From the IMG/VR virus record IMGVR_UViG_3300028833_000003: 64,000 nt of DNA; one strand, written 5' to 3'. Within the stretch, counting starts at the first letter, position 1. Each line of letters begins with the position of its first letter. The translations under genes were made by a program, and so were the position numbers. The notes beneath the pieces were generated by a model. It saw only the letters and a list, made by a program, of their open reading frames with translations, did no database searches and was not told where the DNA came from. This document shows positions 8,808 to 23,423 of this stretch, piece after piece. The stretch comes from a virus.

Positions 8808-8811
8808 ATCA

Positions 8812-8921: not shown

Positions 8922-8932
8922 GTAAATTTTTA

Positions 8933-9686: not shown

Positions 9687-9839
9687 ATGATAACAGTAAG
9701 TTAGATTTTTGTTTTTCTTTTAATGTTTGATGCAGCCTGGGTATTCTATGGACTGCTACATAAAAAAAATATGTGGAAATGGATTTGTCTTTATTGGATA
9801 CTCCTCACATTAAAAAATGCAAGTGATCTAATTTTTTGA
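9687..9839 (+). CDS. Small single-pass membrane protein (one in-frame TAG at 9702)
   Basis: ATG lies 8 nt after GAGG. MITVS-TAG-IFVFLLMFDAAWVFYGLLHKKNMWKW... Ends in TGA at 9837. Confidence 0.35.
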
Positions 9840-9852
9840 GGAGATGAAAAAG

Positions 9853-10098
9853 ATGTATTCAAGAGCACACATTAGATGTAATGGCCCACAGGAAACTGCG
9901 CAATTAGTAAGTTTATTAAATACTGATGGTACAACCAATAAGTATATCTTAGAAACGGCAGATAGTGCTTATCGTGTAAATGCAAGAAGTTTCTTAGGTG
10001 CGGTATATTTTACTACTGAGCATGCTGATGATACTTGGTTAGTAAATACTGATAATGATGGTTGGTATCCTATTGGTATTGATAACTTCCGTATCTAA
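9853..10098 (+). CDS. Hypothetical protein (weak HPr-like resemblance, catalytic His absent)
   Basis: Track ORF 9844..10098. The second ATG (9853) lies 9 nt after GAGGAG. ...RVNARSFLGAVYF recalls the HPr ...KS.mg.m.L segment. Confidence 0.55.
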   Translation: MYSRAHIRCNGPQETAQLVSLLNTDGTTNKYILETADSAYRVNARSFLGAVYFTTEHADDTWLVNTDNDGWYPIGIDNFRI

Positions 10099-10121
10099 TT
10101 GGGACAAAATAGTCCCCATAA

Positions 10122-10198
10122 TGGGGTGTAGCCAAGTTGGCCAAGGCATGGGACTTTGACTCCCACATTCGCAGGTTCGAGTCCTGCCACCCCAGCCA
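10122..10198 (+). tRNA. tRNA-Gln(TTG)
   Basis: Acceptor TGGGGTG/CACCCCA (U1-A72), anticodon arm TGGGA-CTTTGAC-TCCCA, T arm GCAGG-TTCGAGT-CCTGC, G73, CCA encoded. Confidence 0.9.
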
Positions 10199-10202
10199 AT
10201 AT

Positions 10203-10277
10203 GCCGTCGTGGCTCAATGGTAGAGCAGCTGATTTGTAATCAGCAGGTTGTAGGTTCGACTCCTATCGGCGGCTCCA
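10203..10277 (+). tRNA. tRNA-Thr(TGT)
   Basis: Acceptor GCCGTCG/CGGCGGC, anticodon arm GCTGA-TTTGTAA-TCAGC, T arm GTAGG-TTCGACT-CCTAT, U73, CCA encoded. Confidence 0.85.
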
Positions 10278-10541
10278 AGAGAGCATACTCTTAACCAATG
10301 TCGATTGCAGGTGGTATCGTTAAATCCACCCCAGGCGGACCAGAGGATAATGCAGACGTGCAAAAATGCCCCAAACCCAGTGCGGTTTGTCAGTCGTCAC
10401 AATCGGGACAAGCTGGTCTAAAGATGGAAAGCCGGCTCATTACAGCAATGTTAGCCAGAGTAGTATAAAAGGCAAGTACAGCGCAGATGACAATGCGAAG
10501 ATTTCGGTTCGACTCCGAACTAAAAATCCATCTTGAAATAT
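10278..10541 (+). ncRNA. Candidate structured non-coding RNA (~260 nt) between tRNA-Thr and tRNA-Ser
   Basis: No ORF. Helices: AAGAG/CTCTT, GGTGG-TATCGTTAAAT-CCACC, GACCAG (10339-10344) with CTGGTC (10413-10418), TTGTC/GACAA, AGATGGA (10422-10428) with TCCATCT (10526-10532), and a T-arm-like TTCGG-TTCGACT-CCGAA. Confidence 0.4.
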
Positions 10542-10630
10542 GGGCGTGTGGCCGAGAGGCTGAAGGCTATGGTCCTGAAAACCATCGTGGTGATGAGCCA
10601 CCGTAGGTTCGAATCCTACCGCGCTCGCCA
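10542..10630 (+). tRNA. tRNA-Ser(TGA) with non-canonical C33
   Basis: Type II tRNA. Acceptor GGGCGTG/CGCGCTC, anticodon arm ATGGT-CCTGAAA-ACCAT (perfect stem; the loop has C at position 33), long variable arm, T arm GTAGG-TTCGAAT-CCTAC, G73, CCA encoded. Confidence 0.8.
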
Positions 10631-13607: not shown

Positions 13608-14884
13608 ATTATTCTTTACGAGAAAAACCTCGTAATTGGAAAGACGCAATTGGTTATACTCTATAGTTTGTATTTGCGGTCCTAACCGCAACTATTTTAA
13701 TCGCAACTATCTGCGGAACCAGCATCGCGGCAGGTCTCGTCGCAGCAGGTATCGGCACATTAACTTTTTTGTGTATCACAGGTTTTAAAGCGCCAATAGT
13801 GATTAGTAATAGCGGCGCTACGGTATCTGCGGTAGTAGGTGCATTAGCTCTATCTAGTGCAGTTGAAACTAATTTCGCTGGTGTTATTTTAGGTGGCGCG
13901 GTAATCGCAGTTATTTATGGAGCAGCAGCATTGGCAATTAAGAAATGGGGCATTCAATGGTTACAGAAGCTAATTCCGCCACTAATTTCGGGGACAACCA
14001 TATTAGTAATCGGTATTACATTGGCTGCATTTATTCCGACATACGCACTTGTGGGTGGCAGCTATTCGTTATGGGGCATCCTTATTGCGGGGATTACAGC
14101 AATAACCACAGTTCTGTGTATGCATTATGGGAAGAGCTTAGTCAAGACAATGCCTTTCTTAATTGGTTTGCTAGTAGGGTACATTGTCAGTTTTGTCCTA
14201 ACTTTAACAAATGTTGCTCCATTAGTCAACATGGACGCATTGAAGATTTCAAGTGTCTTTACTGTTCCCCAATTTGCCTTCTTGCAAACGAACTTCAATA
14301 CTTTCGATTGGTCAGCTCTACCGCAAATCATTCTCTCATTTGGAATGGTAGCACTTGCGGCAATGACTGAGCACATTGGAGATATGACGACTGCTTCTGC
14401 TGTAACTGGATATAATCTATTAGAAACTCCTGGTTTGCATCGCACATTACTTGGTGATGGCGTAGGTAGTTTAATGGGTACTATTGTTGGCGGATAGCCC
14501 AATACCACTTATAGTGAATATACTTCTACAATGGCAATTAGCGGAGTTTATAGCACTTGGTACACATTATATACTGCTATTGTTTTAATCGCACTTGGTT
14601 TTATTGCACCATTTAATGCTTTCTTAATGGCATTACCTAATGCGGTATTTGCTGGTGTATCAATAGTAGCATATGGTATGATTGCTCTTGCTGGTTTGCG
14701 CACTATTGTAAATGCAAATATTGATTTTAGCAATAGTAAAAATCAAATTATATTTGCGGCAATGGTAACAACCGGATTGAGTGGTTTAGCAATTACATAT
14801 GGAGCATTTAATTTAACAGGCATTGCGCTTGCAATGATTGTCGGTGTGCTATTGAATGTAATTTTAAAAAATAAGGGAGAGTAA
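13598..14884 (+). CDS. NCS2-family nucleobase (uracil/xanthine-type) permease (two in-frame TAGs: 13664, 14495)
   Basis: About 12 hydrophobic segments. Motifs include ...PNTTY.E......A..GVYS.W and TEHIGD. Track ORFs 13769 and 14531 are in one frame with ATG 13598, which follows GGGAGGAAGGG. TAG 13664 falls at the family Q of the QH motif. Confidence 0.85.
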
Positions 14885-14902
14885 TCTCCCTTGATTTTTT
14901 TT
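14875..14902 (+). terminator. Rho-independent terminator overlapping the stop codon
   Basis: GGGAGA-GTAA-TCTCCC followed by TTGATTTTTTTT. Confidence 0.8.
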
Positions 14903-14919
14903 AAAATTTTTGGTATAAT
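14891..14919 (+). promoter_or_regulatory. Promoter cassette (TTGATT-N17-TGgTATAAT)
   Basis: -35 at 14891-14896 and -10 at 14914-14919. Class B leader ATATATGTAAGATAAAGAAAAG. Confidence 0.75.
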
Positions 14920-14986: not shown

Positions 14987-16519
14987 ATGAGTGAATTTCT
15001 TAACAGCTTAAAGGTTGCTACTAACATGACCCATACGACTAATGGCGCTCTTACCTATAAGTCTACGCTTAACAAGGTGTATGATTTGTTCGCTCAGGGT
15101 GCGGCTATGCGTAATGGCGATGAATCTATGTGTCGTTCTTTGTTTATGTCTGCATATCATGAAAATCCTACGCTGGCATTAAAGTGTCTGTTCTATTTGC
15201 GTGATATTCGTGGCGGTCAAGGCGAGCGGCGCTTCTTCCGCATTGCTATTCGTTCACTGGCTCAGAAGTATCAAAAGGAAATGTCTAATCTGGTAAAGTA
15301 TATTCCTGAATTTGGTCGGTGGGATGACCTATATACTCTTGTAGATACCCCTCTGGAAAATGAAGCATTTGCTTTTATGAAGAAGCAGATTATGCTGGAC
15401 TTGGACAGCAAGACCCCTTCTTTGCTTGCTAAGTGGCTGAAGTCTGAGAATACCTCTTCTCAGGAGTCTGTGCGCTTGGCAACTAAGACTCGTCTGGCTT
15501 TCGGTCTGTCTGCGCGGCGTTATCGTAAGATGCTGTCTCTGCTTCGTAATCGTATTAACATCGTTGAAACTCTGATGTCTCAGAACCGCTGGGACGAGAT
15601 TGAGTTTGATAAGCTGCCTTCTCGGGCTGGTATTATTTATAAGAATGCATTCGCACGCCATGACATTACTAAGGCTCGTTATGAAGCATTTATTAAGGAT
15701 GAGAACACTAAGGTCAATACCGGAACTCTTTATCCTTATGATGTTGTTCATGAAGTATCTAAGTTGTGGAAGGGTTGGTATAACTATAAGCTGACTAAGG
15801 ACGTCAATGACGTTGAACGTTTGGCCATCAATAAGTATTGGGATAATCTGACCGATTATTTCAATGGTGCAACTCTGAACGCGCTGGCTGTTGTAGATAC
15901 CTCCGGTTCTATGACTAGTGGGTCTGGAAATATTGCTCCTATTGATGTCGCTATCGCTCTCGGTATGTATTGCGCTGACCGTGCGCAGGGACCTTTCCAT
16001 AATCACTTTGTTTCTTTCAGCCGCCGTCCTGAGTTGATTGAAATTGAGGGTGTGGATTTCTGCGAGAAGGTAAGCAATATCTATCGTCAGAACCTGTGTG
16101 AGAATACCAACATCGAAGCTACCTTTGATTTGCTTCTTAACACTGCAAAGCGCGCTCATCTGCGTCAGGATCAGCTTCCTCAGTCTCTGATTATCATCAG
16201 CGATATGCAGTTTGACCGGGCAACTGGCCGCTACTGTAATGATGATGAAATGGATGCATGGGCTAACACTTTGTTTGAAACTATTAATCAGCGCTGGGAA
16301 AATGCCGGATATGAGATGCCTCATCTTATCTTCTGGAACGTAAATGCTGCTTCTGGTGGCGGAAACATTCCTATGCGCGACAGTGGAAATGTTACTTACG
16401 TCAGCGGTGCTTCTCCTGTTATTCTGGAACAGGTGCTTACGGGCAAGACTGGCCAGGATGTCATGCTGGACAAGCTGATGTCTGAACGCTACGCTGTTAT
16501 CAAGTCTATTACTGAGTAA
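14987..16519 (+). CDS. DUF2828/TROVE-like protein with a C-terminal vWA domain (Ro60-related candidate)
   Basis: N-terminus T.NGALTY.ST.N...DLF......R........LF..AY.ENP.LALKCLFYLRDIRGGQGERR.F matches the remembered DUF2828 pattern. VDTSGSM is a vWA MIDAS-type motif. No TAG. AAG/CGT/CTG codon regime. Confidence 0.7.
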   Translation: MSEFLNSLKVATNMTHTTNGALTYKSTLNKVYDLFAQGAAMRNGDESMCRSLFMSAYHENPTLALKCLFYLRDIRGGQGERRFFRIAIRSLAQKYQKEMSNLVKYIPEFGRWDDLYTLVDTPLENEAFAFMKKQIMLDLDSKTPSLLAKWLKSENTSSQESVRLATKTRLAFGLSARRYRKMLSLLRNRINIVETLMSQNRWDEIEFDKLPSRAGIIYKNAFARHDITKARYEAFIKDENTKVNTGTLYPYDVVHEVSKLWKGWYNYKLTKDVNDVERLAINKYWDNLTDYFNGATLNALAVVDTSGSMTSGSGNIAPIDVAIALGMYCADRAQGPFHNHFVSFSRRPELIEIEGVDFCEKVSNIYRQNLCENTNIEATFDLLLNTAKRAHLRQDQLPQSLIIISDMQFDRATGRYCNDDEMDAWANTLFETINQRWENAGYEMPHLIFWNVNAASGGGNIPMRDSGNVTYVSGASPVILEQVLTGKTGQDVMLDKLMSERYAVIKSITE

Positions 16520-16527
16520 CTTATATA

Positions 16528-16561
16528 CAAGGCTGAGTAAATCTCAGCCTTGATTTTTTTT
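16528..16561 (+). terminator. Rho-independent terminator
   Basis: CAAGGCTGAG-TAAAT-CTCAGCCTTG followed by a T-run. Confidence 0.9.
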
Positions 16562-16578
16562 ATATTTTTTGGTATAAT
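16550..16578 (+). promoter_or_regulatory. Promoter cassette (TTGATT-N17-TGgTATAAT)
   Basis: -35 at 16550-16555 and -10 at 16573-16578. Confidence 0.75.
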
Positions 16579-16598
16579 ATATAAGGAAGGTGAAAGAA

Positions 16599-16805
16599 AT
16601 GAAAGAGTTTGAATTTTTGCCAAAGCAAATTTTCCTTGAATGGTATGAAACAAATCGTATTAAACCTGGTAAATATTATTGGGTTGTAGAAGAAGAAGAT
16701 GGGTGGCAACGTCAATTGCGTTATCCCATTATGAATTATCGTCCAGATTTGGCAGCGGCTGCCACGAATCCTCAATATATAGGAGTGAATTATTATGCTC
16801 TTTAA
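16599..16805 (+). CDS. Hypothetical protein
   Basis: ATG lies 8 nt after AAGGAAGG and is internal to track ORF 16590. TAA stop. Confidence 0.5.
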   Translation: MKEFEFLPKQIFLEWYETNRIKPGKYYWVVEEEDGWQRQLRYPIMNYRPDLAAAATNPQYIGVNYYAL

Positions 16806-17598
16806 TAAAACGCAGGAACAAAAACAGAAAATTCTTGACAAGGTTCAAAATCATCATTATTTCGTCGAAAATTATTTGCCAGATGAAGTAATTTTTACAG
16901 CACTAATTGGTAGTCAAAATTATAATTTAGATACTGAGAATAGTGATATTGACACTATTACATTTATTTTGCCGTCTTTATCTTCCTTTTATACAACAGA
17001 ACAATTAATTTCAAAAGAATATGAACTTGAAGATGGCAAAGCAGTAATTAAAGATATTCGTTTATTTTTTAAGCTTTTGCGCAAAAGTTCGCCCAATAGT
17101 ATTGAATGGATTTGCAGCCATTATATGTATATTAATCCAACATATGAAACTGTTATTGAGCGGATGCGCAATGATTGCAATCTATTAAGCAGCTGCGATA
17201 TACTCAATATGCTACATGCAATTGCTGGCACCGCAACACAGTTACATGGTAGAAATATGACTATTGGTAAGCGTTTCTCACATGTTTTACGTTTAGATGA
17301 TATGATGTACACTTATACAGTTAATTTTGAAAATGGCGATTTCTTAGCGCTGCGGCCTGGCGATATGCGCATGGCATTAGATGCAAAAACTGGTCATTGT
17401 AATTTAACTGATGATGAAATCAAAAGTGAATGTGATAAATTAACCACAAAGATTAATCAAGAAGTTACTGATTATCATTTAACTTCTATCGACATTAATC
17501 GCATGGCGCTTGCGCGAGCACTTTTAAAATTTCATGAAAGACGCTTATTTGAGACTTACTTGCATACCCAGGGATTTGAAAAAATTAAAAAAATTTGA
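16795..17598 (+). CDS. RlaP-like (RNA-ligase-associated Pol-beta-fold) nucleotidyltransferase
   Basis: ALIGSQNYNLDTENSDIDTITF is the GS..Y......SD.D nucleotidyltransferase signature. It overlaps the upstream gene by 11 nt and follows GGAG. No TAG. Confidence 0.65.
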   Translation: MLFNKTQEQKQKILDKVQNHHYFVENYLPDEVIFTALIGSQNYNLDTENSDIDTITFILPSLSSFYTTEQLISKEYELEDGKAVIKDIRLFFKLLRKSSPNSIEWICSHYMYINPTYETVIERMRNDCNLLSSCDILNMLHAIAGTATQLHGRNMTIGKRFSHVLRLDDMMYTYTVNFENGDFLALRPGDMRMALDAKTGHCNLTDDEIKSECDKLTTKINQEVTDYHLTSIDINRMALARALLKFHERRLFETYLHTQGFEKIKKI

Positions 17599-17604
17599 TA
17601 TAAT
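17576..17604 (+). promoter_or_regulatory. Promoter cassette (TTGAAA-N17-TGaTATAAT) embedded in the 3' end of the preceding gene
   Basis: -35 at 17576-17581 and -10 at 17599-17604. Leader ATATATAGAAAGTGAGGGA. Confidence 0.7.
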
Positions 17605-17630
17605 ATATATAGAAAGTGAGGGATTAAGTG

Positions 17631-17918
17631 ATGGCTATGAAGGTTTGGTTTGAAGATGCTAATGGCAATGAGCGGATTATTAAAAATACTGCTTTGACCT
17701 GGGCAGAGGTTGATCAAGCTATCAATGAATTTATTCGGCGATGCAATATCAATAAGATAAACCAAGCTAAGCGGTTGTATGGCGACCAGTATGATGAGTC
17801 TAAGGTTAATCTCTTCAAACGGTATTATACTCGGGTATGGAAGCAAGAGGATGGCCGAACCAAGATTGACGTAGGTTCTCATAGTGAGTTCTTCTTATGG
17901 GAGGGAACGTATGAGTAA
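17631..17918 (+). CDS. Hypothetical protein
   Basis: ATG lies 7 nt after GAGGGA. Track ORF 17628..17918. Confidence 0.5.
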   Translation: MAMKVWFEDANGNERIIKNTALTWAEVDQAINEFIRRCNINKINQAKRLYGDQYDESKVNLFKRYYTRVWKQEDGRTKIDVGSHSEFFLWEGTYE

Positions 17919-18435
17919 AAGTTGGTTTTTGCATGAAATTGATTATAGTCGTATTCCTCCAAGAGATAATGGCTATTGGGAAATTCGTGGCAATAAGCCT
18001 CAACCTAACACAATCATTCAAGTATATAACATGATGGGCGGTCATCATGATTATAAAGTTACTGAATTGGATGAATTTATTTACTCTGATTGGGAGACAG
18101 TAGGACGTCGTAGATATACAGAAAATCAGAAATCAGATTATGGATGGATTGATTTAGAAGGTAATTTTTATGGTTGTGATTGGGCCGAACATAGAGATTG
18201 CGCATATATATGTTTTGGCCTAACTGAGTTAGATGCTGAACGCCAAGGCTATGTAAAAATTTATTATGATAAATCTAATGCCAAATATGATAATTATCAT
18301 TACCGTCCTGATGGTTTAGGCTGGTACTGCGATCGTCCCTTAACTGATGCGCAGATAGCTAAATTAAATGAACGAGGTTTCTCTGCCAACAGAGAAAGAG
18401 AGGATTTGTTATATGACGACGGATATGATGATTAA
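17911..18435 (+). CDS. Hypothetical protein
   Basis: ATG follows GGGAGGGAACGT and is internal to track ORF 17884. It overlaps the upstream stop. Confidence 0.55.
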   Translation: MSKSWFLHEIDYSRIPPRDNGYWEIRGNKPQPNTIIQVYNMMGGHHDYKVTELDEFIYSDWETVGRRRYTENQKSDYGWIDLEGNFYGCDWAEHRDCAYICFGLTELDAERQGYVKIYYDKSNAKYDNYHYRPDGLGWYCDRPLTDAQIAKLNERGFSANREREDLLYDDGYDD

Positions 18436-18604
18436 ACGAATTAATGAATTAGAAAGCACTGTACAAAGGTATGAAGCAGAAAATTTCGCATTGCGTGTGG
18501 AGCTTAATAGGCTTCGAGATGAATCAGCAACAATACAACAGCAAGCCGAATTTGGCAAAGCAACTGAAACTTTTATTAAAGAAATCAAAAGGATTATGAG
18601 GTGA
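18413..18604 (+). CDS. Small coiled-coil protein
   Basis: ATG lies 9 nt after GAGAGGA and is internal to track ORF 18368. TGA stop lies 4 nt before the ligase start. Confidence 0.45.
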   Translation: MTTDMMIKRINELESTVQRYEAENFALRVELNRLRDESATIQQQAEFGKATETFIKEIKRIMR

Positions 18605-18608
18605 GATT

Positions 18609-20012
18609 ATGGCATATTGTGGATATGTAGTTAAGGTAGAACATCTTCGTAAGCATACCAATGCGGACCGTCTGCAAATTGCTACTTTTTTTGGTAATGA
18701 TACTATTGTTGGTATGAACACTCAGTACGGTGATATTGGTGTTTATTTCCCTGTTGATGGTCAGTTATCTGAGCGCTTTTGTGAGGTAAATGACCTTGTG
18801 CGCCGCAAGGATGAAAACGGTAAGCAGGTTGGCGGTTATCTTGACCCTGATAAGCGTAACATAAAGGCCTTGAAGCTGCGTGGTGAAAAGTCTGATGGTC
18901 TTTATCTGCCTATTACTTGTTTAGCTGACTTCTGCAAGATTTCTGATTTGAAGGTTGGTGACACTATTGATACTGTCAATGGTGAGCTGATTTGCCAGAA
19001 GTACATTCCTCATTCTAATGCTCGCACTCATGCTGGCGGTGCGAAGGGTGTAAAGAAGGTCAAGGCCAACATCGCACCTACTTTCTATGAACATGTTGAT
19101 ACTGCTCAGTTGGCTTATAACCTCAACGCTTTTAAGCCTGGTGATACTGTTCAGCTGACCTTGAAGATGCATGGCACTTCTGGTCGTACTGGGTATCTAC
19201 CTCTGGTACATGTAAAGCAAACTTGGTTTGATAAGTTGTTCCATCGTCCTGGCAAGGAATATAAGGAGTATGGTTATATTACTGGCACTCGTCGTGTAGT
19301 CCTGGATGGGAAGCGCACTGGTGGTTTCTATGACTCTGATGATTTCCGTGAAGCTATGGCTGCCAAGTTCGATGGTAAGCTCCGTAAGGGCGAAGTTGCC
19401 TATTATGAAATCGTTGGATTCCAGGGACCTAATGGTGCTCCTATTATGAGCCAGGTTCAGAACTCTAAGGTAAAGGACCCTGAATTTACTAAGCAGTATG
19501 GTTCAGTAACTACTTTCTCTTATGGTTGTGAGCAAGATGGTGGCTATGAAGCTAAGAGCATCCTTGATCCTGGCGTAGAATTTAACAAGGCTCCTTGCTG
19601 TGAAGTGTATGTCTATCGTATGACTATGGTCAATGAAGATGGTGATGTAGTAGAATATTCTCCTGCTCAGATTAAGGAGCGTTGTGAGCAGATGGGTATT
19701 CATACTGTAATGGAATTTGAAACCTTCATAATTCCTGATATGATTCAGCTACCTGACGATGTTGGGTCTTTACAGGCGGTCGATGCTGGCGAATATGTTC
19801 TTCGTAAGGTTGAGCAGTATTTCGATGGTCCTGACCCTATCGGTAAGACCCATGTGCGCGAAGGAGTAGTTGCTCGTATCCTTAACCGTACTAACTTCGC
19901 AGTTTATAAGCACAAGAACTTCTCTTTCAAGGTGTTGGAAGGCATTGCCAAGGATGAAGCTACCGCGCCTGACATTGAAGAGGCTCAGGAAATAATGGAA
20001 GATGGAGTTTAA
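18609..20012 (+). CDS. RNA ligase (Rnl2/Rnl5-like nucleotidyltransferase) with an N-terminal tRNA-binding-type OB domain
   Basis: N-terminus VVKVEHLRKHTNADRLQI resembles the hPNADkL tRNA-binding OB motif. TLKMHGTSG fits the ligase motif I (K.HG). No TAG. All ten Lys codons in the first ~100 codons are AAG. Confidence 0.7.
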   Translation: MAYCGYVVKVEHLRKHTNADRLQIATFFGNDTIVGMNTQYGDIGVYFPVDGQLSERFCEVNDLVRRKDENGKQVGGYLDPDKRNIKALKLRGEKSDGLYLPITCLADFCKISDLKVGDTIDTVNGELICQKYIPHSNARTHAGGAKGVKKVKANIAPTFYEHVDTAQLAYNLNAFKPGDTVQLTLKMHGTSGRTGYLPLVHVKQTWFDKLFHRPGKEYKEYGYITGTRRVVLDGKRTGGFYDSDDFREAMAAKFDGKLRKGEVAYYEIVGFQGPNGAPIMSQVQNSKVKDPEFTKQYGSVTTFSYGCEQDGGYEAKSILDPGVEFNKAPCCEVYVYRMTMVNEDGDVVEYSPAQIKERCEQMGIHTVMEFETFIIPDMIQLPDDVGSLQAVDAGEYVLRKVEQYFDGPDPIGKTHVREGVVARILNRTNFAVYKHKNFSFKVLEGIAKDEATAPDIEEAQEIMEDGV

Positions 20013-20015
20013 TTT

Positions 20016-20339
20016 ATGAATAGAGAACAATATAGACGTTGGGCTAAAACTAATAAAAAACATTTTACAGACACTTGTCCTTATTGCAAACGTGATACTC
20101 GTTTTATCTTCGCTGAGGATGTACCTGGCGAAGTAACTGTAAAATGTGCTGTATGTGATGCGGTTGTTAATTCAGAACCTGAACTTAAAGAATTTGGCGT
20201 GAAGGGCGTGTATATGCCCTTCCCGCTTCGCACACTGGAAGCAATTATTCTATCTGCGAGGATGCAAAAGCAAAAAGAACAAGAGCAGAAGGAGAAAATG
20301 CTGAAAGATGAAATATCTGATAGTGCTCGGATATCGTGA
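20016..20339 (+). CDS. Zinc-ribbon protein with a Lys/Glu-rich tail
   Basis: Track ORF. CPYC...CAVC. Confidence 0.5.
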   Translation: MNREQYRRWAKTNKKHFTDTCPYCKRDTRFIFAEDVPGEVTVKCAVCDAVVNSEPELKEFGVKGVYMPFPLRTLEAIILSARMQKQKEQEQKEKMLKDEISDSARIS

Positions 20340-20637
20340 CTCAAATACGCATAAAACAACTTATACTAATGGTTTTTGTAAAGAGATGCTCGATGGTAAT
20401 GCGGCTAGAATACTCGCGCGTCAGAAAGAAATTGAATATCTGCGCTCATTAAATGTATGGAAACGAGTTGTAGAAAATGCACCTACTTTAGAAGCTGCCG
20501 CAGAAACTTTTAAAGATATGATAGCTTATATGGTATGCTGGCTACATAATTACGTCAATTTACCAGTTGTGCAAGTGTTACCATGGGAAATTATTTATCA
20601 AGAGTATATATTCTATAAGGAGGAGTATCATGACTAA
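20308..20637 (+). CDS. Hypothetical protein
   Basis: Track ORF. It overlaps the upstream gene. Confidence 0.5.
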   Translation: MKYLIVLGYRDSNTHKTTYTNGFCKEMLDGNAARILARQKEIEYLRSLNVWKRVVENAPTLEAAAETFKDMIAYMVCWLHNYVNLPVVQVLPWEIIYQEYIFYKEEYHD

Positions 20638-20755
20638 GGAACAGAAAGTCGAGCAGCTTCAAGCGCGTAAAAAGAGGATCCTGTCGCGTGGTTATTATAA
20701 TATGAGAATTGCGAATAAAATTGATCGCAAAATTAGGAGGATTCAAAATGGATGA
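20630..20755 (+). CDS. Small basic protein
   Basis: ATG lies 6 nt after AAGGAGGAG and is internal to track ORF 20567. Confidence 0.4.
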   Translation: MTKEQKVEQLQARKKRILSRGYYNMRIANKIDRKIRRIQNG

Positions 20756-20957
20756 ATTTTTTAAAGTAATTGGAGTATTAGTGCTACTTGCGCTTCTTAT
20801 CTTCCTCGGTCCGCTCGTTGTGATGATTGGTTGGAATTGTGCGCGAGAAGCATGGCCAATGCTTCCAGTACTGTCTTATTGGCAGGTATTTTGGATGACA
20901 AATGGTTTGAGCCTGATTTTTAAAACAACCACAACTGGTCGCTACAAAAATGATTAA
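20748..20957 (+). CDS. Two-pass membrane protein
   Basis: ATG lies 7 nt after AGGAGGA and is internal to track ORF 20709. Two hydrophobic segments. Confidence 0.5.
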   Translation: MDEFFKVIGVLVLLALLIFLGPLVVMIGWNCAREAWPMLPVLSYWQVFWMTNGLSLIFKTTTTGRYKND

Positions 20958-20960
20958 TTA

Positions 20961-20989
20961 ATCAAGGGATTTACTCCCTTGATTTTTTT
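20961..20989 (+). terminator. Rho-independent terminator
   Basis: ATCAAGGGA-TTTAC-TCCCTTGAT followed by a T-run. Confidence 0.9.
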
Positions 20990-21007
20990 ATAATTTTTTG
21001 ATATAAT
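20979..21007 (+). promoter_or_regulatory. Promoter cassette (TTGATT-N17-TGaTATAAT)
   Basis: -35 at 20979-20984 and -10 at 21002-21007. Leader ATATATAGAAAGCGAGGGAAG. Confidence 0.75.
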
Positions 21008-21032
21008 ATATATAGAAAGCGAGGGAAGAAGT

Positions 21033-21773
21033 ATGAACTACTATGCAATGGGTGACATTCATGGCCGTGCAGATTTGTTCTGGAATGCAGTAGAATTTAT
21101 GAGTCATGATGCTGCGCCAGGTAAGTGGCATTGTTATTTTCTTGGCGATGCCTGTGACCGTGGCCCTGATGGTTGGGAACTCATTAAAATCCTATTGGAC
21201 AATCCTAACCTATTTACATATCTCTTGGGCAATCATGAAGATATGTTACTCAAAGCAATTGCATCATTAAAATCAGTAGCGCGATTTCATAATCTAGACA
21301 TCACTGATTATGATGCAATAAGAGAGAATACTTATTCTCAAAACGTGGCACTTTGTGATTATAATGGCGGCGACCCAACTATGAGAGCGGCGCTGAAAGA
21401 CCCAAAGCTCAATGAATATGTTTTAAAGCTAAGACAGCTTCCACTTACTGCATCTCATGGAGTAATTGATATGTGCCATGCCGGTTGTACCATTGGCGAT
21501 TGGGAGCGGTTAAAGGACGTTCGCAATGATGAGGCTATTGACATCTTCTGCTGGGACCGTGAGCATTTTGGGGCACCCTGGTATGAAAATCGTATTTTGC
21601 TTCATGGCCATACTCCAATAGTTAGCAGCCATTTTAGACCTTGGAAAGATTATGGCCCATATAAGACTGGCGAAAAAGTAAATCTTGATGCTGGCGCAGT
21701 TTGGACCAATGAACTTTATCTTTATGATTTTCAACAGCAAGATGTTGTAGTAATTCACGCTATTGAAAATTAA
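21033..21773 (+). CDS. Lambda-type Ser/Thr protein phosphatase (metallophosphoesterase)
   Basis: GDIHG ... GDACDRGPDG ... GNHE ... GHTP motifs in canonical order. Confidence 0.8.
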   Translation: MNYYAMGDIHGRADLFWNAVEFMSHDAAPGKWHCYFLGDACDRGPDGWELIKILLDNPNLFTYLLGNHEDMLLKAIASLKSVARFHNLDITDYDAIRENTYSQNVALCDYNGGDPTMRAALKDPKLNEYVLKLRQLPLTASHGVIDMCHAGCTIGDWERLKDVRNDEAIDIFCWDREHFGAPWYENRILLHGHTPIVSSHFRPWKDYGPYKTGEKVNLDAGAVWTNELYLYDFQQQDVVVIHAIEN

Positions 21774-21791
21774 TAAAAAATTTGGTATAAT
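21763..21791 (+). promoter_or_regulatory. Promoter cassette (TTGAAA-N17-TGgTATAAT)
   Basis: -35 at 21763-21768 (inside the stop region of the previous gene) and -10 at 21786-21791. Class B leader. Confidence 0.7.
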
Positions 21792-21826
21792 ATATATGTA
21801 AGATAAAGAAAGGGGTTTGGTAAGAA

Positions 21827-22036
21827 ATGAAAGATACTTGCTATTGTATTTATCGTCATGATGACCCTGACAATCCATTCTTTTTTGAAGATGCTGATTC
21901 TGCAATGTTCGTAATGAAGTACATTAATCCTGAGTACCGTGATAGATATAAGGTTGAAAAGTGTATGTCTCCGTTTATGGACCCTTGCGAAGCGATTGAT
22001 AGAATTAACATGTTTGAAAATAAATATGGAGAGTGA
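21827..22036 (+). CDS. Hypothetical protein
   Basis: Track ORF. ATG follows AAAGGGG. Confidence 0.5.
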   Translation: MKDTCYCIYRHDDPDNPFFFEDADSAMFVMKYINPEYRDRYKVEKCMSPFMDPCEAIDRINMFENKYGE

Positions 22037-22041
22037 GATAT

Positions 22042-22308
22042 ATGGCACGTGGAGTTAATGCTTTTGAATCTCATGACTTTTATTGTATGTGCTGCGGCAA
22101 TAAAGGTATTCCGCTATCACGACAGGTTGGCAAAAACCGCGGCGCGCAACATCGCAAACTTCTATATTGTATCTACTGTCAAAAGCGCGTAAATCATATC
22201 GAATGTCGTAATGAGCAAGAAGTCAAAGCGTTCAAGGAGGATTTTGAAAATGGACTCTATCTTGATGAAGCAGTCGCAGAACTTAACTATGCAGATGCCC
22301 ATGCGTAA
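22042..22308 (+). CDS. Zinc-ribbon protein
   Basis: ATG lies about 11 nt after GGAGAG and is internal to track ORF 22033. CMCCG...CIYC. Confidence 0.5.
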   Translation: MARGVNAFESHDFYCMCCGNKGIPLSRQVGKNRGAQHRKLLYCIYCQKRVNHIECRNEQEVKAFKEDFENGLYLDEAVAELNYADAHA

Positions 22309-22792
22309 GCCTATTCTATACATTATGTGCGGCATTCCTGGTAGCGGTAAATCTACCCTCGCTGAGAAGCTGATGCGCGACAAGGCTGATGAAGATATTC
22401 GATATGTTTCTCGTGATGAAATTCGGTTCCATTTACTTAAAGAAGGAGAAGATTACTTCTCTCATGAAGATGAAGTATATGATCGTTTTGTTGGAACCAT
22501 TGCTAATACCCTGATTGATGGATTTGATGTCATTGCAGACGCAACTCACTGCAATCATGGCTCTCGGGCGAAGCTGTATAATTATCTGCGACTGTGGCAT
22601 ATGCCGCCCGAAGATTATGATGTTGTGTTTATCCAGATGACTACTTCTTTTGAAGAGTGCATGAAGCGTAATGATTTGCGCGAAGGTGTGACTCATGTGC
22701 CAAAGTCTGTTATGAAGCGCATGTGGGCGCAGAGCACTTATCCTACTAAGCATGAATTCTCTAATGTTAAGGACGTGATCTATCATGAGTGA
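22301..22792 (+). CDS. P-loop kinase (polynucleotide-kinase-like, AAA_33 type)
   Basis: MRKPILYIMCGIPGSGKSTLA contains the Walker A motif. The start is chosen at ATGCGTAA, which overlaps the upstream stop; in-frame ATGs also lie at 22289 and 22295. It overlaps the next gene by 8 nt. Confidence 0.65.
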   Translation: MRKPILYIMCGIPGSGKSTLAEKLMRDKADEDIRYVSRDEIRFHLLKEGEDYFSHEDEVYDRFVGTIANTLIDGFDVIADATHCNHGSRAKLYNYLRLWHMPPEDYDVVFIQMTTSFEECMKRNDLREGVTHVPKSVMKRMWAQSTYPTKHEFSNVKDVIYHE

Positions 22793-23390
22793 AATTTTTT
22801 TCACTTCTGACACTCACTTCTGCCACGAACAAGATTTTCTTTATGCACCACGCGGATGCTCATCTACTGAGGAAATGACAGAAAAGATTGTAAATCGTTG
22901 GAATGAAGTTGTAGGAAAAAATGATATTGTTTATCATCTCGGTGATGTGCTGATGGGACATTATGATGTTAATATCCTATCCAGACTCAATGGTTCGATT
23001 AAATTAATTAGAGGCAATCATGACACCGATAAGAAATTGCGCGACATCTACGCGATTGGTAAATTGGCTACTGATAATATACTTACTAGCGAACTTATAA
23101 AGTTCGGCAAACTTTCGCTATTCTTGTGCCACTATCCAGTCCTTACTGCCAATTTCGATGATAGGCATTTCAGTCAGCACGTGATTTCCCTGCATGGGCA
23201 CACACATCAATCAAAGAACTGGTTATTCCCCTCTAACCCGTTCATATATCATGTGGGCCTTGATTCACACGATTGTTATCCGGTTCATATTGAAACCATC
23301 ATTCAAGACATTAAGAACCGATGGAATGAATTGGGTACAATCAACGGCATACACCCTCTCGTCTCTGTAATGCCGGAATATCCCCTGTAA
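22785..23390 (+). CDS. Calcineurin-like metallophosphoesterase (candidate 2',3'-phosphate end-healing partner of the kinase)
   Basis: SDTHF.H ... GD ... GNHD ... HGH motifs. It is translationally coupled to the kinase. Confidence 0.75.
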   Translation: MSEIFFTSDTHFCHEQDFLYAPRGCSSTEEMTEKIVNRWNEVVGKNDIVYHLGDVLMGHYDVNILSRLNGSIKLIRGNHDTDKKLRDIYAIGKLATDNILTSELIKFGKLSLFLCHYPVLTANFDDRHFSQHVISLHGHTHQSKNWLFPSNPFIYHVGLDSHDCYPVHIETIIQDIKNRWNELGTINGIHPLVSVMPEYPL

Positions 23391-23396: not shown

Positions 23397-23423
23397 GAGC
23401 CTACACAAAGTAGGCTCTTTTTG
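23397..23423 (+). terminator. Rho-independent terminator
   Basis: GAGCCTAC-ACAAA-GTAGGCTC followed by TTTTTGT. Confidence 0.85.

What the first reader, a model, noticed from the sequence alone, without database searches (positions are those of the whole stretch)
14987..23390. TAG-free RNA-repair island: TROVE-like vWA protein, RlaP-like nucleotidyltransferase, OB-fused RNA ligase, kinase plus metallophosphoesterase, and a Ser/Thr phosphatase
Seen in sequence:
- 14987-16519 has the DUF2828-type N-terminus and a vWA VDTSGSM motif.
- 16795-17598 has the GS..Y......SD.D nucleotidyltransferase signature.
- 18609-20012 has an hPNADkL-like OB domain plus a K.HG ligase motif.
- 22301-22792 (P-loop kinase) overlaps 22785-23390 (GNHD metallophosphoesterase).
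- 21033-21773 is a lambda-type phosphatase.
- A cREC-like receiver domain lies at 8376.

Established knowledge: as I recall, these domains co-occur in the RNA-repair systems catalogued by Burroughs and Aravind (2016). Kinase plus phosphoesterase plus ligase is the Pnkp/Rnl logic that phages use to mend tRNAs cut by host anticodon nucleases.

Inference: together with 25 tRNAs and the Y-like RNAs, this looks like an integrated system for protecting or repairing translation capacity. The combination, especially a Ro-like RNP in a recoded phage, may be undescribed.
Basis: partly seen in the sequence, partly recalled or inferred. Interest (0 to 1): 0.75.

Follow-up and report, generated by a model that had tools for sequence, protein, structure and literature searches.

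The report
Phage RNA-repair genes beside Ro-like RNP
A large TAG-recoded phage carries, just after its 25-tRNA array, early genes for a Ro60-like ring protein, tRNA-mimicking small RNAs and a full RNA "heal and seal" enzyme set, which is a real and conserved example of a toolkit already catalogued in big phages.

Summary
- 14987-16519 is DUF2828+DUF7788, and its predicted fold matches Ro60 full-length (top nine PDB hits).
- 16795-17598 is a divergent RlaP.
- 18609-20012 is a DraRnl/Rnl5-like ATP RNA ligase with an N-terminal OB domain.
- 22250-22792 is a Pnkp-type kinase that overlaps a Metallophos_2 esterase (22785-23390) by 8 nt.
- 21033-21773 is a lambda-phosphatase/ApaH/CthPnkp-type esterase.
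- 8376-8714 is cREC.

The gene order recurs in related IMG/VR phage contigs.

I also found a covarying YrlA-like RNA family. It has a closing helix AAGRC/GYCUUG, an unpaired CAGCAA, then T arm, closed acceptor hairpin and D arm. Two full copies and three candidate short forms lie in the window's tRNA array. It occurs in 38 of 71 related loci, always upstream of the Ro-like gene on the same strand. It also sits next to DUF2828 genes in three cultured phages: E. coli Alf5, Bacillus Tsamsa and Mycobacterium Tyson.

The most likely function is early counter-defence repair of cleaved tRNA/RNA, plus a Ro-like RNP.

The novelty claim fails. This toolkit, phage Ro/Y-RNA pairs and a Ro60-like anti-defence protein of a tRNA-rich coliphage are all published. 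"TAG-free" is true but holds for most of the window. It is a new member of a known kind, and the RNA family is the freshest lead.

The parts
646..10630 (+). Array of 25 tRNA genes, including a 93-nt tRNA with anticodon CUA at 8715-8807. Small RNAs and a few small ORFs are interspersed.
   Evidence: ARAGORN and Rfam tRNA hits. In related loci, the 10 kb upstream of the Ro-like gene holds 8.5 tRNAs on average, against 0.2 downstream.
6018..6140 (+). Y-like RNA copy 1. Layout: closing helix AAGACCUG/CGGGUCUU, unpaired UCAGCAA, T arm, closed acceptor-like hairpin, D arm.
   Evidence: Rfam YrlA 35.7 bits, below the gathering score of 69. Own covariance model R1 89 bits. MFE fold z = -3.1.
8810..8925 (+). 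Y-like RNA copy 2, immediately after the tRNA(CUA). Same architecture, with an extra V hairpin.
   Evidence: Rfam YrlA full-length 32.4 bits, sub-threshold. R1 99 bits. MFE fold shows the four-way layout.
2688..2781 (+). Candidate short Y-like RNA: AGACACG/CGUGUCU helix, UCAGCAA and a T-arm-like hairpin, but no D arm.
   Evidence: Motif and helix scan. The fold is not better than shuffles (z = -0.6), so this one is weak.
4744..4810 (+). Candidate short RNA with the same closing helix (AAGGCUC/GAGCCUU) and ACAGCAA, lying between two tRNA-Leu genes.
   Evidence: R1 27.9 bits; motif scan; fold.
9595..9668 (+). Candidate short RNA with an UAGGCUCC/GGGAGCCUA helix and ACAGCAA.
   Evidence: Motif scans; fold z = -3.3.
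8376..8714 (+). Stand-alone cREC (cyclic-phosphate-processing receiver) domain protein inside the tRNA array.
   Evidence: Pfam PF20274 5.7e-19. An extended -10 promoter lies at 8330. Homologues lie upstream of the Ro-like gene in L003, L004 and L082.
14872..14919 (+). Terminator hairpin whose 3' arm supplies the -35 of an extended -10 promoter for the Ro-like gene.
   Evidence: Scan; TGGTATAATAT at 14911.
14987..16519 (+). Ro60-like ring protein: DUF2828 alpha-helical repeat domain plus DUF7788 vWA domain with a complete MIDAS motif. It is monocistronic.
   Evidence: Pfam and PHROG. AF2 model pLDDT 81.6. Foldseek PDB top nine hits are all Ro60, E down to 8.7e-7, full length. BFVD hits include TROVE and Ro-like phage proteins.
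16528..16578 (+). Terminator/promoter cassette ahead of the RlaP-like gene.
16795..17598 (+). Divergent RlaP-family Pol-beta nucleotidyltransferase.
   Evidence: PF10127 27.3 bits against a cut-off of 23. 29 of 39 homologues hit RlaP. Follows the Ro-like gene in 38 of 82 loci.
17576..20957 (+). Transcription unit starting at the promoter at 17576-17604. It holds small conserved ORFs of unknown function (17628-17918, 17884-18435, 20016-20339 with a Zn ribbon, 20308-20637, 20709-20957) around the ligase gene.
   Evidence: Promoter. orf17628 and orf17884 are conserved next to the ligase in L003, L018, L031 and L035. PHROG gives unknown-function hits only.
18609..20012 (+). ATP-dependent RNA ligase of the DraRnl/NgrRnl (Rnl5) type. 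It has an N-terminal OB domain (HxNADRL) and nucleotidyltransferase motifs I, III, IV and V. A roughly 150-aa insert carries four invariant Cys.
   Evidence: PHROG 968 3.8e-66. TIGR02306 1.9e-13. NgrRnl is the only PDB match, and it is weak. Invariant motif residues.
20960..21007 (+). Terminator/promoter cassette ahead of the lambda-phosphatase-like gene.
21033..21773 (+). PPP-type metallophosphoesterase (GDxHG / GDxxDRG / GNHE) of the lambda-phosphatase/ApaH/CthPnkp-phosphatase clade. A candidate 2',3'-cyclic-phosphate / 3'-phosphate end-healing enzyme.
   Evidence: PHROG 246 2.6e-33. PDB ApaH 7e-4 and CthPnkp phosphatase 4j6o 7.9e-4. PRK00166 5e-16 and bacter_Pnkp 1.7e-3. Syntenic with the kinase in 15 loci.
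21763..21791 (+). Promoter of the unit holding the Zn-ribbon, kinase and esterase genes.
   Evidence: 11 of 12 consensus positions with TG; TGGTATAATAT at 21783.
22033..22308 (+). 91-aa CxxC...CxxC zinc-ribbon protein that always sits directly upstream of the kinase in relatives.
   Evidence: Conserved at 47-60% identity in 11 loci in the same position. No family hit.
22250..22792 (+). P-loop 5'-OH polynucleotide-kinase-like protein (GIPGSGKST ... SRDEIR). The start may be 22211, 22250 or 22301.
   Evidence: AAA_33 4.8e-18 and PHROG 505 polynucleotide kinase 1.4e-20. Best PDB match is Pnkp1 4xrp, 1.7e-6. bacter_Pnkp kinase part 1.3e-6 and PSTK 8e-12.
22785..23390 (+). Metallophos_2 (YfcE/aq_1665-like) phosphoesterase. 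It overlaps the kinase stop by 8 nt, which suggests translational coupling.
   Evidence: PF12850 1.3e-9 and PHROG 547 4e-45. PDB 1xm7 2.4e-5. Kinase followed by esterase in all 17 loci that have both.
23397..23417 (+). Terminator closing the kinase/esterase unit.

Best explanation
This is the early, host-RNA-polymerase-transcribed 'translation protection' region of a ~169-kb TAG-recoded phage.

Shown:
- The genes encode a complete 5'-PO4/3'-OH heal-and-seal set. It comprises a Pnkp-type 5'-OH kinase, two metallophosphoesterases (one coupled to the kinase; one of the lambda-phosphatase/CthPnkp clade), an Rnl5-like ATP-dependent RNA ligase with a tRNA-binding-type OB domain, and an RlaP-type 3'-nucleotide adder.
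- A Ro60-like ring/vWA protein is encoded immediately upstream of these genes.
- Upstream of that lies a tRNA array carrying YrlA-like tRNA-mimic RNAs and a cREC protein.

Inferred mechanism:
1. Host anticodon nucleases or other defence RNases cut tRNAs, or other stable RNAs, leaving 2',3'-cyclic-phosphate and 5'-OH ends.
2. An esterase opens and removes the 3' phosphate, and the kinase phosphorylates the 5' end.
3. RlaP restores one or two lost 3' nucleotides.
4. The ligase seals the break, which is held as a nick by the tRNA's own helices.
5. Phage tRNAs replace what cannot be repaired.
6. The Ro-like protein, loaded with the CAGCAA-type Y-like RNAs, binds damaged or misfolded RNA ends. It either hands them to these enzymes or to host exonucleases, or it blocks a host defence.
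For: - Family assignments.
- Ro60 fold.
- Ligase catalytic motifs are invariant.
- The order Ro-like, RlaP, ligase, lambda-type esterase, Zn-ribbon, kinase, esterase is conserved on one strand in L018, L020, L031, L035, L030, L042 and L065. Kinase precedes esterase in 17 of 17 loci.
- All units carry sigma70-type extended -10 promoters, 25 in the window against 4 expected.
- The Y-like RNA family has 95% paired cells against 30-45% in slid controls, and 21 of 23 pairs show compensatory changes. It occurs in 38 of 71 loci, on the same strand upstream of the Ro-like gene.
- The same RNA lies next to DUF2828 genes in Tyson, Alf5 and Tsamsa.
- Listeria phage P100 has DUF2828 followed by RtcB, an RNA ligase and a homologous esterase.
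- Literature: RlaP adds 1-2 NMP to damaged RNA 3' ends and is needed to restore aminoacylation (PMC12776372). The jumbo-phage RNA-repair repertoire is described in PMC7824862. LeBron encodes a Ro-like protein, a polynucleotide kinase and an RNA ligase (PMC13148394).
Against: - There is no biochemical or genetic evidence for any protein here.
- The island is at least five separate transcription units, and the Ro-like gene is monocistronic.
- Across distant phages the constant partner of DUF2828 is the tRNA array or the Y-like RNA, not a ligase. Tsamsa and Alf5 have no ligase within 7-9 kb.
- Rnl5 enzymes characterised so far seal nicks in duplex RNA, and a role on broken anticodon loops is unproven (my knowledge of DraRnl/NgrRnl work).
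- The ligase and kinase hits to curated equivalog models are well below cut-off.
- The ligase structure model was unusable, with pLDDT 48.7.
- Having two esterases is unexplained.
- There is no Hen1-like methyltransferase.
- The only phenotype reported for a probable family member (Bas63 gp130) is against Ppl, a predicted DNA-degrading system (PMC11482910).
Confidence: 0.6

Rival explanations
1. The Ro-like protein and its Y-like RNAs form an autonomous RNP that does not work with the repair enzymes. It would recruit a host exoribonuclease such as PNPase, or sequester an RNA or defence factor, in order to disarm host immunity or reshape RNA decay. The neighbouring repair genes would simply share the early region.
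For: - The Ro-like gene has its own promoter and terminators.
- In Alf5 (Felixounavirus) and Tsamsa it sits beside the tRNA array without a ligase or kinase nearby.
- The Y-like RNA follows the gene even in Tyson, which has no tRNA array there.
- Thermus phage phiRo60 binds two phage Y-like RNAs and host PNPase (PMC12135203).
- Bas63 gp130, Ro60-like and adjacent to the tRNA array, counters the Ppl system (PMC11482910).
Against: - RlaP follows the Ro-like gene in 38 of 82 loci, and the ligase in 29.
- P100 pairs DUF2828 with RtcB and an RNA ligase.
- Salmonella rsr-yrlBA-rtcBA links Ro, Y RNAs and an RNA ligase in one operon (PMC7790460).
- This reading is not exclusive of the main explanation.
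Confidence: 0.3
2. The cluster serves maturation and quality control of the phage's own tRNA-array transcripts rather than repair of damage inflicted by the host. The Ro-like RNP would screen misfolded precursors, while the kinase, esterases, RlaP and ligase would tidy the ends made during processing.
For: - There is a tight positional link between DUF2828 genes and tRNA arrays: 60 of 83 sources have three or more tRNAs within 10 kb upstream. The same holds in P100, Tsamsa and Alf5.
- Cellular Ro60 binds misfolded small-RNA precursors (PMC12135203 introduction; PMC4201824).
- The Y-like RNAs are embedded in the array and would be co-transcribed.
Against: - Bacterial tRNA maturation by RNase P, RNase Z and exonucleases yields 5'-phosphate and 3'-OH ends, so it needs no kinase, cyclic phosphodiesterase or ligase (established knowledge).
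- No split or permuted tRNA genes requiring ligation were detected by ARAGORN.
- Tyson carries the Ro-like gene and RNA without an adjacent array.
Confidence: 0.12
3. The enzymes are unrelated nucleotide or DNA-metabolism and signalling functions that merely sit together. The candidates would be a nucleotide kinase, an Ap4A or protein phosphatase, a DNA-end esterase, and a ligase acting on DNA nicks.
For: - The island is flanked by nucleoside 2-deoxyribosyltransferase-like genes and a nucleobase permease, and is followed by gyrase/topoisomerase genes.
- The lambda-type esterase scores best against ApaH models.
- The AAA_33 fold is shared with many small-molecule kinases.
- T5 carries an adjacent NinI-like phosphatase and a phosphoesterase without an annotated RNA ligase in the 50 kb examined.
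Against: - The ligase matches only RNA-ligase families.
- The kinase's best structural-database and curated matches are Pnkp1, bacterial Pnkp and the tRNA kinase PSTK. It also carries the SRDxxR motif of polynucleotide kinases.
- RlaP, cREC and Ro-like are RNA-repair-associated families (PMC7824862, PMC12776372).
- Order and strand are conserved over relatives whose proteins have diverged to 30-50% identity.
Confidence: 0.05

Closest known systems
RNA-repair repertoire of jumbo and other large phages (Burroughs & Aravind 2016, cited from memory because the paper was not held; Iyer et al. 2021, PMC7824862)
   Same: [quoted passage not shown] The proposed role is also the same, namely reversing host attacks on tRNAs.
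   Different: - Here the contig is ~169 kb, below the jumbo range, and TAG-recoded.
- The ring protein is the DUF2828/DUF7788 branch, not Pfam TROVE.
- The ligase is Rnl5-like, whereas that paper discusses Rnl1/Rnl2/RtcB.
- The partner RNAs carry a CAGCAA motif and are multi-copy.
Bacterial Pnkp1-Rnl-Hen1 and Pnkp/Hen1 RNA repair systems (PDB 4xrp, 4j6o)
   Same: [quoted passage not shown] The window's kinase has Pnkp1 as its best PDB match. The lambda-type esterase matches the CthPnkp phosphatase domain.
   Different: - Kinase and esterase are separate overlapping genes rather than one polypeptide.
- There is no Hen1 2'-O-methyltransferase.
- The ligase belongs to a different branch (N-terminal OB, DraRnl-like).
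- All similarities are distant, with E values of 1e-3 to 1e-6.
Phage T4 Pnkp + Rnl1, which repair tRNA-Lys cut by PrrC
   Same: A phage-encoded heal-and-seal pathway that counters an anticodon nuclease.
   Different: T4's phosphatase is of the HAD/DxDxT type and is fused to the kinase. T4's ligase is Rnl1. T4 has no Ro-like protein, RlaP or cREC (my knowledge).
Salmonella rsr-yrlBA-rtcBA operon and bacterial Ro60/YrlA RNPs (PMC4201824, PMC7790460)
   Same: A Ro ring protein, tRNA-mimicking Y RNAs on the same strand nearby, and an RNA ligase in one locus. The RNA topology is the same: T arm, closed acceptor stem, D arm, with the 5'/3' ends forming the protein-binding helix.
   Different: - The protein is not a Pfam TROVE member.
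- The RNAs score only 32-36 bits against Rfam YrlA (gathering score 69).
- The RNAs carry CAGCAA instead of GNCGAAN0-1G.
- The ligase is ATP-dependent and joins 5'-phosphate ends, unlike RtcB.
- There is no RtcR/sigma54 control.
Phage Ro60 homologues with data: Thermus phage phiLo phiRo60-Yrl1/2 (PMC12135203) and Bas63 gp130 (PMC11482910)
   Same: A phage-encoded Ro60-fold protein with Y-like RNA genes next to it. gp130 lies directly beside the tRNA array of a Felixounavirus, as the DUF2828 gene does in Alf5.
   Different: - phiRo60 is described as a canonical Ro60 homologue, and its RNAs have a CGAA motif.
- That Bas63 gp130 belongs to the DUF2828 family is my inference from the Alf5 layout, not a test.
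- Neither of those phages has the adjacent repair enzymes.

Membership tests
Ro60 / TROVE ring proteins | Alpha-helical (HEAT-like) repeat ring followed by a vWA domain, seen as a full-length fold match to solved Ro60 structures. | tested here: met
   AF2 model pLDDT 81.6. The top nine Foldseek PDB hits are Xenopus, human and Deinococcus Ro60, prob 1.0, E 8.7e-7 to 3.9e-4, 560-590 aligned columns, TM about 0.4-0.5.
Ro60 / TROVE ring proteins | MIDAS motif DxSxS...T...D in the vWA domain. | tested here: met
   D304, S306, S308, T374 and D406 are invariant in 52 sequences.
Ro60 / TROVE ring proteins | Sequence membership in Pfam TROVE (PF05731), or detectable sequence similarity to solved Ro60 chains. 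| tested here: not met
   Pfam reports only DUF2828 and DUF7788. phmmer and profile searches of PDB sequences find no Ro60. It is therefore a Ro60-like sister family, not a TROVE member by sequence.
Ro60 / TROVE ring proteins | A Y-RNA gene nearby on the same strand. | tested here: met
   Two full YrlA-like RNAs lie 6-9 kb upstream in the window. They occur in 38 of 71 related loci, 51 nt to 9.6 kb upstream. One lies 107 nt downstream of the gene in phage Tyson.
Ro60 / TROVE ring proteins | Physical binding of Y RNA and of misfolded RNA 3' ends in the central hole. | not testable with these tools
   Needs RIP-seq, EMSA or structure determination.
YrlA (Rfam RF02553) | Score at or above the family's gathering threshold. 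| tested here: not met
   35.7 and 32.4 bits against a threshold of 69.
YrlA (Rfam RF02553) | Permuted tRNA-like module (T arm, closed acceptor stem-loop, D arm) enclosed by a helix formed from the 5' and 3' ends. | tested here: met
   Rfam alignments. RNAalifold gives 23 pairs, 17 of them with compensatory changes. Across 50 sequences, 95.2% of cells are paired against 30-45% when slid.
YrlA (Rfam RF02553) | GNCGAAN0-1G motif near the 5' end (PMC4201824). | tested here: not met
   The equivalent position holds a nearly invariant [A/U]CAGCAA (47-49 of 50 sequences).
RlaP (PF10127) | Pfam score above the gathering cut-off, plus the Pol-beta hG[GS]...DxD motif. | tested here: met
   27.3 bits against 23, but only profile positions 8-113 of 249 are matched. 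29 of 39 homologues hit RlaP, best 1.3e-9. G39, S40, D51 and D53 are invariant.
RlaP (PF10127) | Gene neighbourhood with an RNA ligase. | tested here: met
   The ligase lies 1 kb downstream in the window. RlaP-like and ligase genes co-occur in many related loci.
RlaP (PF10127) | Addition of 1-2 NMP to RNA 3'-OH (PMC12776372). | not testable with these tools
   Biochemical assay needed.
Rnl5 (DraRnl/NgrRnl) RNA ligases | N-terminal OB domain followed by an adenylyltransferase domain with motifs I, III, IV and V. | tested here: met
   TIGR02306 aligns residues 9-196 to profile positions 7-176, covering the OB domain through motif I. NgrRnl's OB domain is the only PDB match. K186xHG, YYE267, EGVVxR423 and K434xK436 are invariant.
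Rnl5 (DraRnl/NgrRnl) RNA ligases | Score above the curated equivalog cut-off, or a confident fold match. | tested here: not met
   50 bits against a cut-off of 151. Pfam domains fall below their gathering scores. The AF2 model (pLDDT 48.7) was too poor for a fold search. The protein is 467 aa against about 340, with a Cys-rich insert. It is best called Rnl5-like.
Bacterial/phage polynucleotide 5'-kinase (Pnkp type) | P-loop GxxxxGK[ST] plus a downstream D-x-x-R, and similarity to Pnkp kinase domains. | tested here: met
   GIPGSGKST and SRDEIR are read directly in the sequence. Pnkp1 4xrp 1.7e-6. TIGR04075 positions 4-134, 1.3e-6. PHROG 505 1.4e-20. All are below equivalog cut-offs.
Calcineurin-like metallophosphoesterases | DxH / GD / GNH[DE] / H / GHxH metal-binding motifs and a Pfam hit. 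| tested here: met
   22785-23390 hits PF12850 at 1.3e-9 and has SDTHF, GD, GNHD and GHTH in its sequence. 21033-21773 has GDIHG, GDACDRG, GNHED and HGHT and hits PHROG 246, but it has no Pfam hit at E <= 0.01.
cREC (PF20274) | Pfam score above cut-off. | tested here: met
   69 bits against 27, E 5.7e-19, profile positions 1-87 of 88.

The most novel reading that the evidence does not exclude
DUF2828/DUF7788 proteins and the CAGCAA-type Y-like RNAs may form a distinct viral Ro-like RNP family that has not been formally described.

- The RNA has a sequence-specific closing helix (AAGRC/GYCUUG), an unpaired CAGCAA and a permuted tRNA-like module.
- The family would be embedded in the tRNA arrays of phages of Proteobacteria, Firmicutes and Actinobacteria, and of a large uncultured ~100-200 kb phage clade.
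- In this clade it would act as the RNA-guided scaffold that brings broken tRNAs to the RlaP/ligase/kinase/esterase set. That would make it an RNP-organised tRNA repair machine, analogous to Ro-Y RNA-PNPase.

The RNAs are multi-copy (at least two full copies, with up to three candidate short forms in this window) and are missed by Rfam's YrlA threshold.
Probability: 0.3. Interest if true: 0.65.

Novelty: new member of a known kind. Interest (0 to 1): 0.42.

Why it matters
tRNA cleavage is now recognised as a common bacterial anti-phage strategy. Phage tRNA arrays, RNA ligases and Ro-like proteins are thought to be the counter-measures, yet the Ro-like proteins have no established mechanism.

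This locus adds nothing categorically new to that picture. It does show the whole toolkit in one conserved neighbourhood of an abundant uncultured phage clade.

It also yields a concrete, testable handle. A covarying RNA family with an invariant CAGCAA motif travels with DUF2828 genes, and it is present in culturable phages (Felixounavirus, Bacillus Tsamsa-like, cluster L mycobacteriophages). Binding, repair and anti-defence roles can be tested directly in those phages.

If the RNP turns out to organise tRNA repair, that would explain why these genes sit at the edge of tRNA arrays in so many phages.

Tried and rejected
- **PDB sequence searches for the Ro-like protein.** A single-sequence search and a 52-sequence profile search found nothing relevant. 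Only the fold search worked.
- **Ligase structure.** The available homologues were 77-100% identical and the AF2 model had pLDDT 48.7, so no fold search was run on it. The profile search of PDB gave only the weak NgrRnl OB match.
- **RlaP structure.** No solved RlaP structure was reachable by sequence or profile.
- **Close GenBank relatives.** Megablast of the island against GenBank phages found no match, so there is no close cultured relative.
- **Rfam.** At gathering thresholds it reports only tRNAs. The YrlA hits are sub-threshold and needed independent support.
- **Burroughs & Aravind 2016.** The paper (PMC5062991) is not held, so its content is cited only through Iyer et al. 2021 and from memory. 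The supplement of Chen et al. 2014 listing phages is also not held.
- **Bas63 gp130.** I tried to fetch the Bas63 record by guessing an accession and got Bas27 instead. The link between gp130 and DUF2828 therefore rests on the Alf5 layout.
- **T5 negative control.** The tRNA-rich phage T5 (bases 1-50,000, 24 tRNAs) gave only tandem-tRNA artefacts, at most 24 bits. I did not check the rest of T5 for a DUF2828 gene, so this control is partial.
- **Amino acid encoded by TAG.** Homologue alignments gave Q at three of four permease positions but mixed residues elsewhere. Relatives gave only five in-frame TAGs in ligase genes, with no pattern. This is unresolved.
- **'TAG-free' as a distinguishing feature.** I considered and rejected it as a mark of the island.

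Full report
**Observation**

The stretch 14987-23390 lies in a run of plus-strand genes that follows an array of 25 tRNA genes at 646-10630.

- 14987-16519 matches Pfam DUF7788 (1.8e-41) and DUF2828 (4.7e-27), and PHROG 850 'RNA-binding protein' (6e-131).
- 16795-17598 matches RlaP at 27.3 bits (cut-off 23) over its N-terminal half. 29 of 39 homologues also hit RlaP.
- 18609-20012 matches PHROG 968 RNA ligase (3.8e-66). It also matches the Deinococcus DRB0094 RNA-ligase model TIGR02306 (1.9e-13) from the N-terminal OB domain through motif I, below that model's cut-off.
- Ligase motifs I (K186xHG), III, IV and V (K434xK436) are invariant in 43 homologues.
- The kinase (AAA_33, 4.8e-18) ends at 22792, and the Metallophos_2 esterase starts at 22785.
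- 21033-21773 has the GDxHG/GDxxDRG/GNHE signature and hits PHROG 246 NinI-like (2.6e-33).
- 8376-8714 is a cREC domain (5.7e-19).

**The Ro-like protein**

Sequence searches against solved structures find no Ro60. An AlphaFold2 model built on 52 homologues (pLDDT 81.6) gives Ro60 from Xenopus, human and Deinococcus as the nine best PDB matches. These are full-length, with probability 1.0 and E down to 8.7e-7.

The MIDAS residues of the vWA domain are invariant. Against predicted viral structures the best matches are DUF2828/DUF7788 proteins of phages and of giant eukaryotic viruses. More distant matches include proteins named TROVE or Ro-like. The protein is therefore a Ro60-fold sister family, not a Pfam TROVE member.

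The family is very large. More than 7,900 clusters scored below 1e-5 among the 8,000 candidates examined. It occurs in 702 of 50,697 GenBank phage records, mostly tRNA-rich phages such as FelixO1-like, A511/P100-like, Tsamsa-like, KVP40-like and cluster L mycobacteriophages, where it is already annotated 'Ro-like RNA binding protein'.

**The enzymes**

- The kinase's best solved relative is Pnkp1 of the Pnkp1-Rnl-Hen1 repair system (1.7e-6). It also matches the kinase part of bacterial Pnkp and the tRNA kinase PSTK, and it carries SRDEIR after the P-loop.
- The lambda-type esterase is about equally close to ApaH and to the phosphatase domain of C. thermocellum Pnkp. 'Ser/Thr phosphatase' is therefore too narrow a label, and the protein is a plausible RNA 3'-end healing enzyme.
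- The second esterase resembles aq_1665/YfcE-type enzymes.
- The ligase is of the type that needs 3'-OH and 5'-phosphate ends. That is why a kinase and a phosphoesterase belong with it.

**Context**

The window is part of a 168,974-bp ENA metagenome contig, and no close relative exists in GenBank phages.

TAG is read through. A xanthine/uracil permease profile runs across the TAG at 14495, and the ENA gene caller reports the 428-aa fused product. In-frame TAGs are confined to a few genes (11338-14884, 23559-24008, 47813-49885). The island has none, and no stop-free frame of 80 or more codons that starts between 24608 and 46782 holds one downstream of its start codon. 'TAG-free' is therefore not a mark of the island.

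The region is cut into at least five units by terminator/promoter cassettes with extended -10 boxes (TGnTATAATAT). There are 25 such boxes in the window against 4 expected. This fits early transcription by the host polymerase. The Ro-like gene is monocistronic.

**Synteny**

Among 80 IMG/VR loci recovered with the Ro-like protein (50-67% identity), several gene pairs recur.

- RlaP-like genes follow the Ro-like gene in 38 loci, and the ligase in 29.
- The lambda-type esterase occurs in 15 loci and a small Zn-ribbon protein in 11.
- The kinase and the esterase each occur in 17 loci, and always in the order kinase then esterase.
- The full order is kept in L018, L020, L031, L035, L030, L042 and L065.
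- Listeria phage P100 has DUF2828 followed by RtcB, an RNA ligase and a homologous esterase.
- Tsamsa and the Felixounavirus Alf5 have the Ro-like gene at the edge of the tRNA array without such enzymes.

**Y-like RNAs**

Rfam at gathering thresholds sees only tRNAs. At relaxed thresholds, YrlA matches 6056-6125 and 8826-8932 at about half the required score. Both show the diagnostic order of T arm, closed acceptor hairpin and D arm.

A pattern search found the same permuted module in related loci, not overlapping tRNAs, always on the strand of the Ro-like gene. All share a closing helix AAGRCnnn/nnnGYCUUG followed by an unpaired [A/U]CAGCAA.

- RNAalifold on 11 seeds gives 23 pairs, 17 with compensatory changes.
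- A covariance model built from them finds 195 hits at E <= 0.01 in 1.46 Mb, all on the plus strand.
- 38 of 71 loci with more than 3 kb of upstream flank have at least one hit of 41 bits or more outside tRNAs, always upstream of the Ro-like gene.
- On 50 hits, 95.2% of cells pair, against 30-45% for slid partners. 21 of 23 pairs show double changes. That alignment was fitted to the model, which favours it.
- The same RNA lies 107 nt after the Ro-like gene of Mycobacterium phage Tyson, inside the tRNA array next to the gene in E. coli phage Alf5, and inside the array of Bacillus phage Tsamsa, at 49-55 bits.
- The first 50 kb of T5, with 24 tRNAs, gives only tandem-tRNA artefacts.
- The window also holds three candidate shorter RNAs with the same helix and motif. 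The strict 5' motif occurs 4 times on the plus strand against 0.2 expected, and 176 against 7 by strand in the loci.

**Mechanism**

The best-supported reading is an early counter-defence module.

1. Host RNases cut tRNAs to 2',3'-cyclic-phosphate and 5'-OH ends.
2. An esterase and the kinase heal the ends.
3. RlaP replaces lost 3' nucleotides. This activity has been shown for Pseudomonas RlaP (PMC12776372).
4. The Rnl5-like ligase seals the break.
5. Phage tRNAs substitute for the rest.

The Ro-like/Y-like RNP probably captures damaged or misfolded RNA. It either feeds these enzymes or acts on its own by recruiting a host exonuclease or neutralising a defence, as suggested for phiRo60 (PMC12135203) and Bas63 gp130 (PMC11482910). 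The families, the synteny and the RNA structure are shown. Substrates, order of action and any physical coupling are inferred.

**Comparison and novelty**

- The parts list and the proposed role match the RNA-repair repertoire described for jumbo phages (PMC7824862).
- The Ro/Y-RNA/ligase linkage parallels Salmonella rsr-yrlBA-rtcBA (PMC7790460).
- The kinase/esterase/ligase logic matches bacterial Pnkp systems and T4 Pnkp/Rnl1.
- Cluster L mycobacteriophage LeBron also encodes a Ro-like protein, a polynucleotide kinase and an RNA ligase (PMC13148394).

The island is thus a new member of a known kind. What I did not find described is the CAGCAA-type RNA family as the regular partner of DUF2828-type proteins across phage lineages. 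The PhageMaP authors only guessed that some Bas63 'tRNAs' might be Y RNAs (PMC11482910). That lead is the most valuable output, and it can be tested in cultured phages.

Noticed in passing
window 8715-8807: The tRNA with anticodon CUA is 93 nt long and has a long variable arm (class II shape), an A1-C72 mismatch and G73. TAG positions in the permease align with Gln in homologues in three of four cases, so the amino acid inserted at TAG is unclear.
   Followed up: partly
window 11338-14884, 23559-24008, 47813-49885: In-frame TAG codons cluster in a handful of genes. There are five in 11338-12480, two in the permease, and one each in 12575-12961, 13047-13607, 23559-24008 and 47813-49885. The repair island has none, and the long frames between 24608 and 46782 have none downstream of their start codons.
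   Followed up: partly
window 13598-14884: A phage-encoded xanthine/uracil-family permease (Pfam PF00860) is interrupted by two in-frame TAGs. A nucleobase transporter is an unusual auxiliary gene for a phage. Nucleoside 2-deoxyribosyltransferase-like genes flank the island at 13047-13607 and 24641-25183.
   Followed up: partly
window 6171-6593: An ORF right after Y-like RNA 1 encodes a signal-peptide-like N-terminus, MRKVISLIMVMLMLFLPLTS-(TAG)-ASC.... The recoded codon sits three residues before a Cys, at the -3 position of a possible lipobox.
   Followed up: no
window 5165-5295: Sub-threshold Rfam hit to the cow-rumen-3 RNA motif inside the tRNA array (42 bits against a gathering score of 86.7, E 1.8e-6, full model length).
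   Followed up: no
window 2788-2863 and 5016-5092: The tRNAs called Leu(UAG) and Leu(AAG) are only 76-77 nt and lack the long variable arm expected of bacterial tRNA-Leu. Their identity may differ from what the anticodon implies.
   Followed up: no
window 18609-20012 (protein residues ~270-415): The ligase carries a roughly 150-residue insert between motifs III and IV with four invariant cysteines (C307, C330, C331, C359). This insert is absent from the 340-aa DraRnl/NgrRnl enzymes and may bind a metal.
   Followed up: no
window 14872-14919, 16528-16578, 20960-21007, 24393-24443: Terminator/promoter cassettes recur in which the 3' arm of the terminator hairpin ends in the -35 hexamer (TTGATT or TTGACT) of the next extended -10 promoter.
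   Followed up: partly
L002 6762-7313 (Listeria phage P100, NC_007610 record 124072-124623): A near-threshold ROOL RNA match (86 bits against 99.1, E 4.6e-16) lies in the tRNA array about 1 kb upstream of P100's DUF2828 gene. No feature is annotated over these coordinates in the stretch shown.
   Followed up: no
L086 9418-9549 (E. coli phage Alf5, NC_031082 record 25086-25217): The Y-like RNA hit (51 bits) lies on the strand opposite an annotated hypothetical CDS (gp133, record 24989-25312). That CDS may therefore be spurious.
   Followed up: no
L087 16916-18300 and 30284-33949 (phage T5): T5 has an adjacent phosphoesterase and NinI-like phosphatase pair. The phosphatase is weakly similar to the window's 21033 protein (E 2.7e-5). 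T5 also has several annotated 'tRNA-like stable RNAs with unknown functions' inside its tRNA array, and none of them matches the CAGCAA model.
   Followed up: partly
window 22033-22308; L002 7715-7876: The small Zn-ribbon protein that precedes the kinase has a weak match (34% identity, E 1.5e-4) in P100. The match lies between P100's last tRNA and its DUF2828 gene.
   Followed up: no
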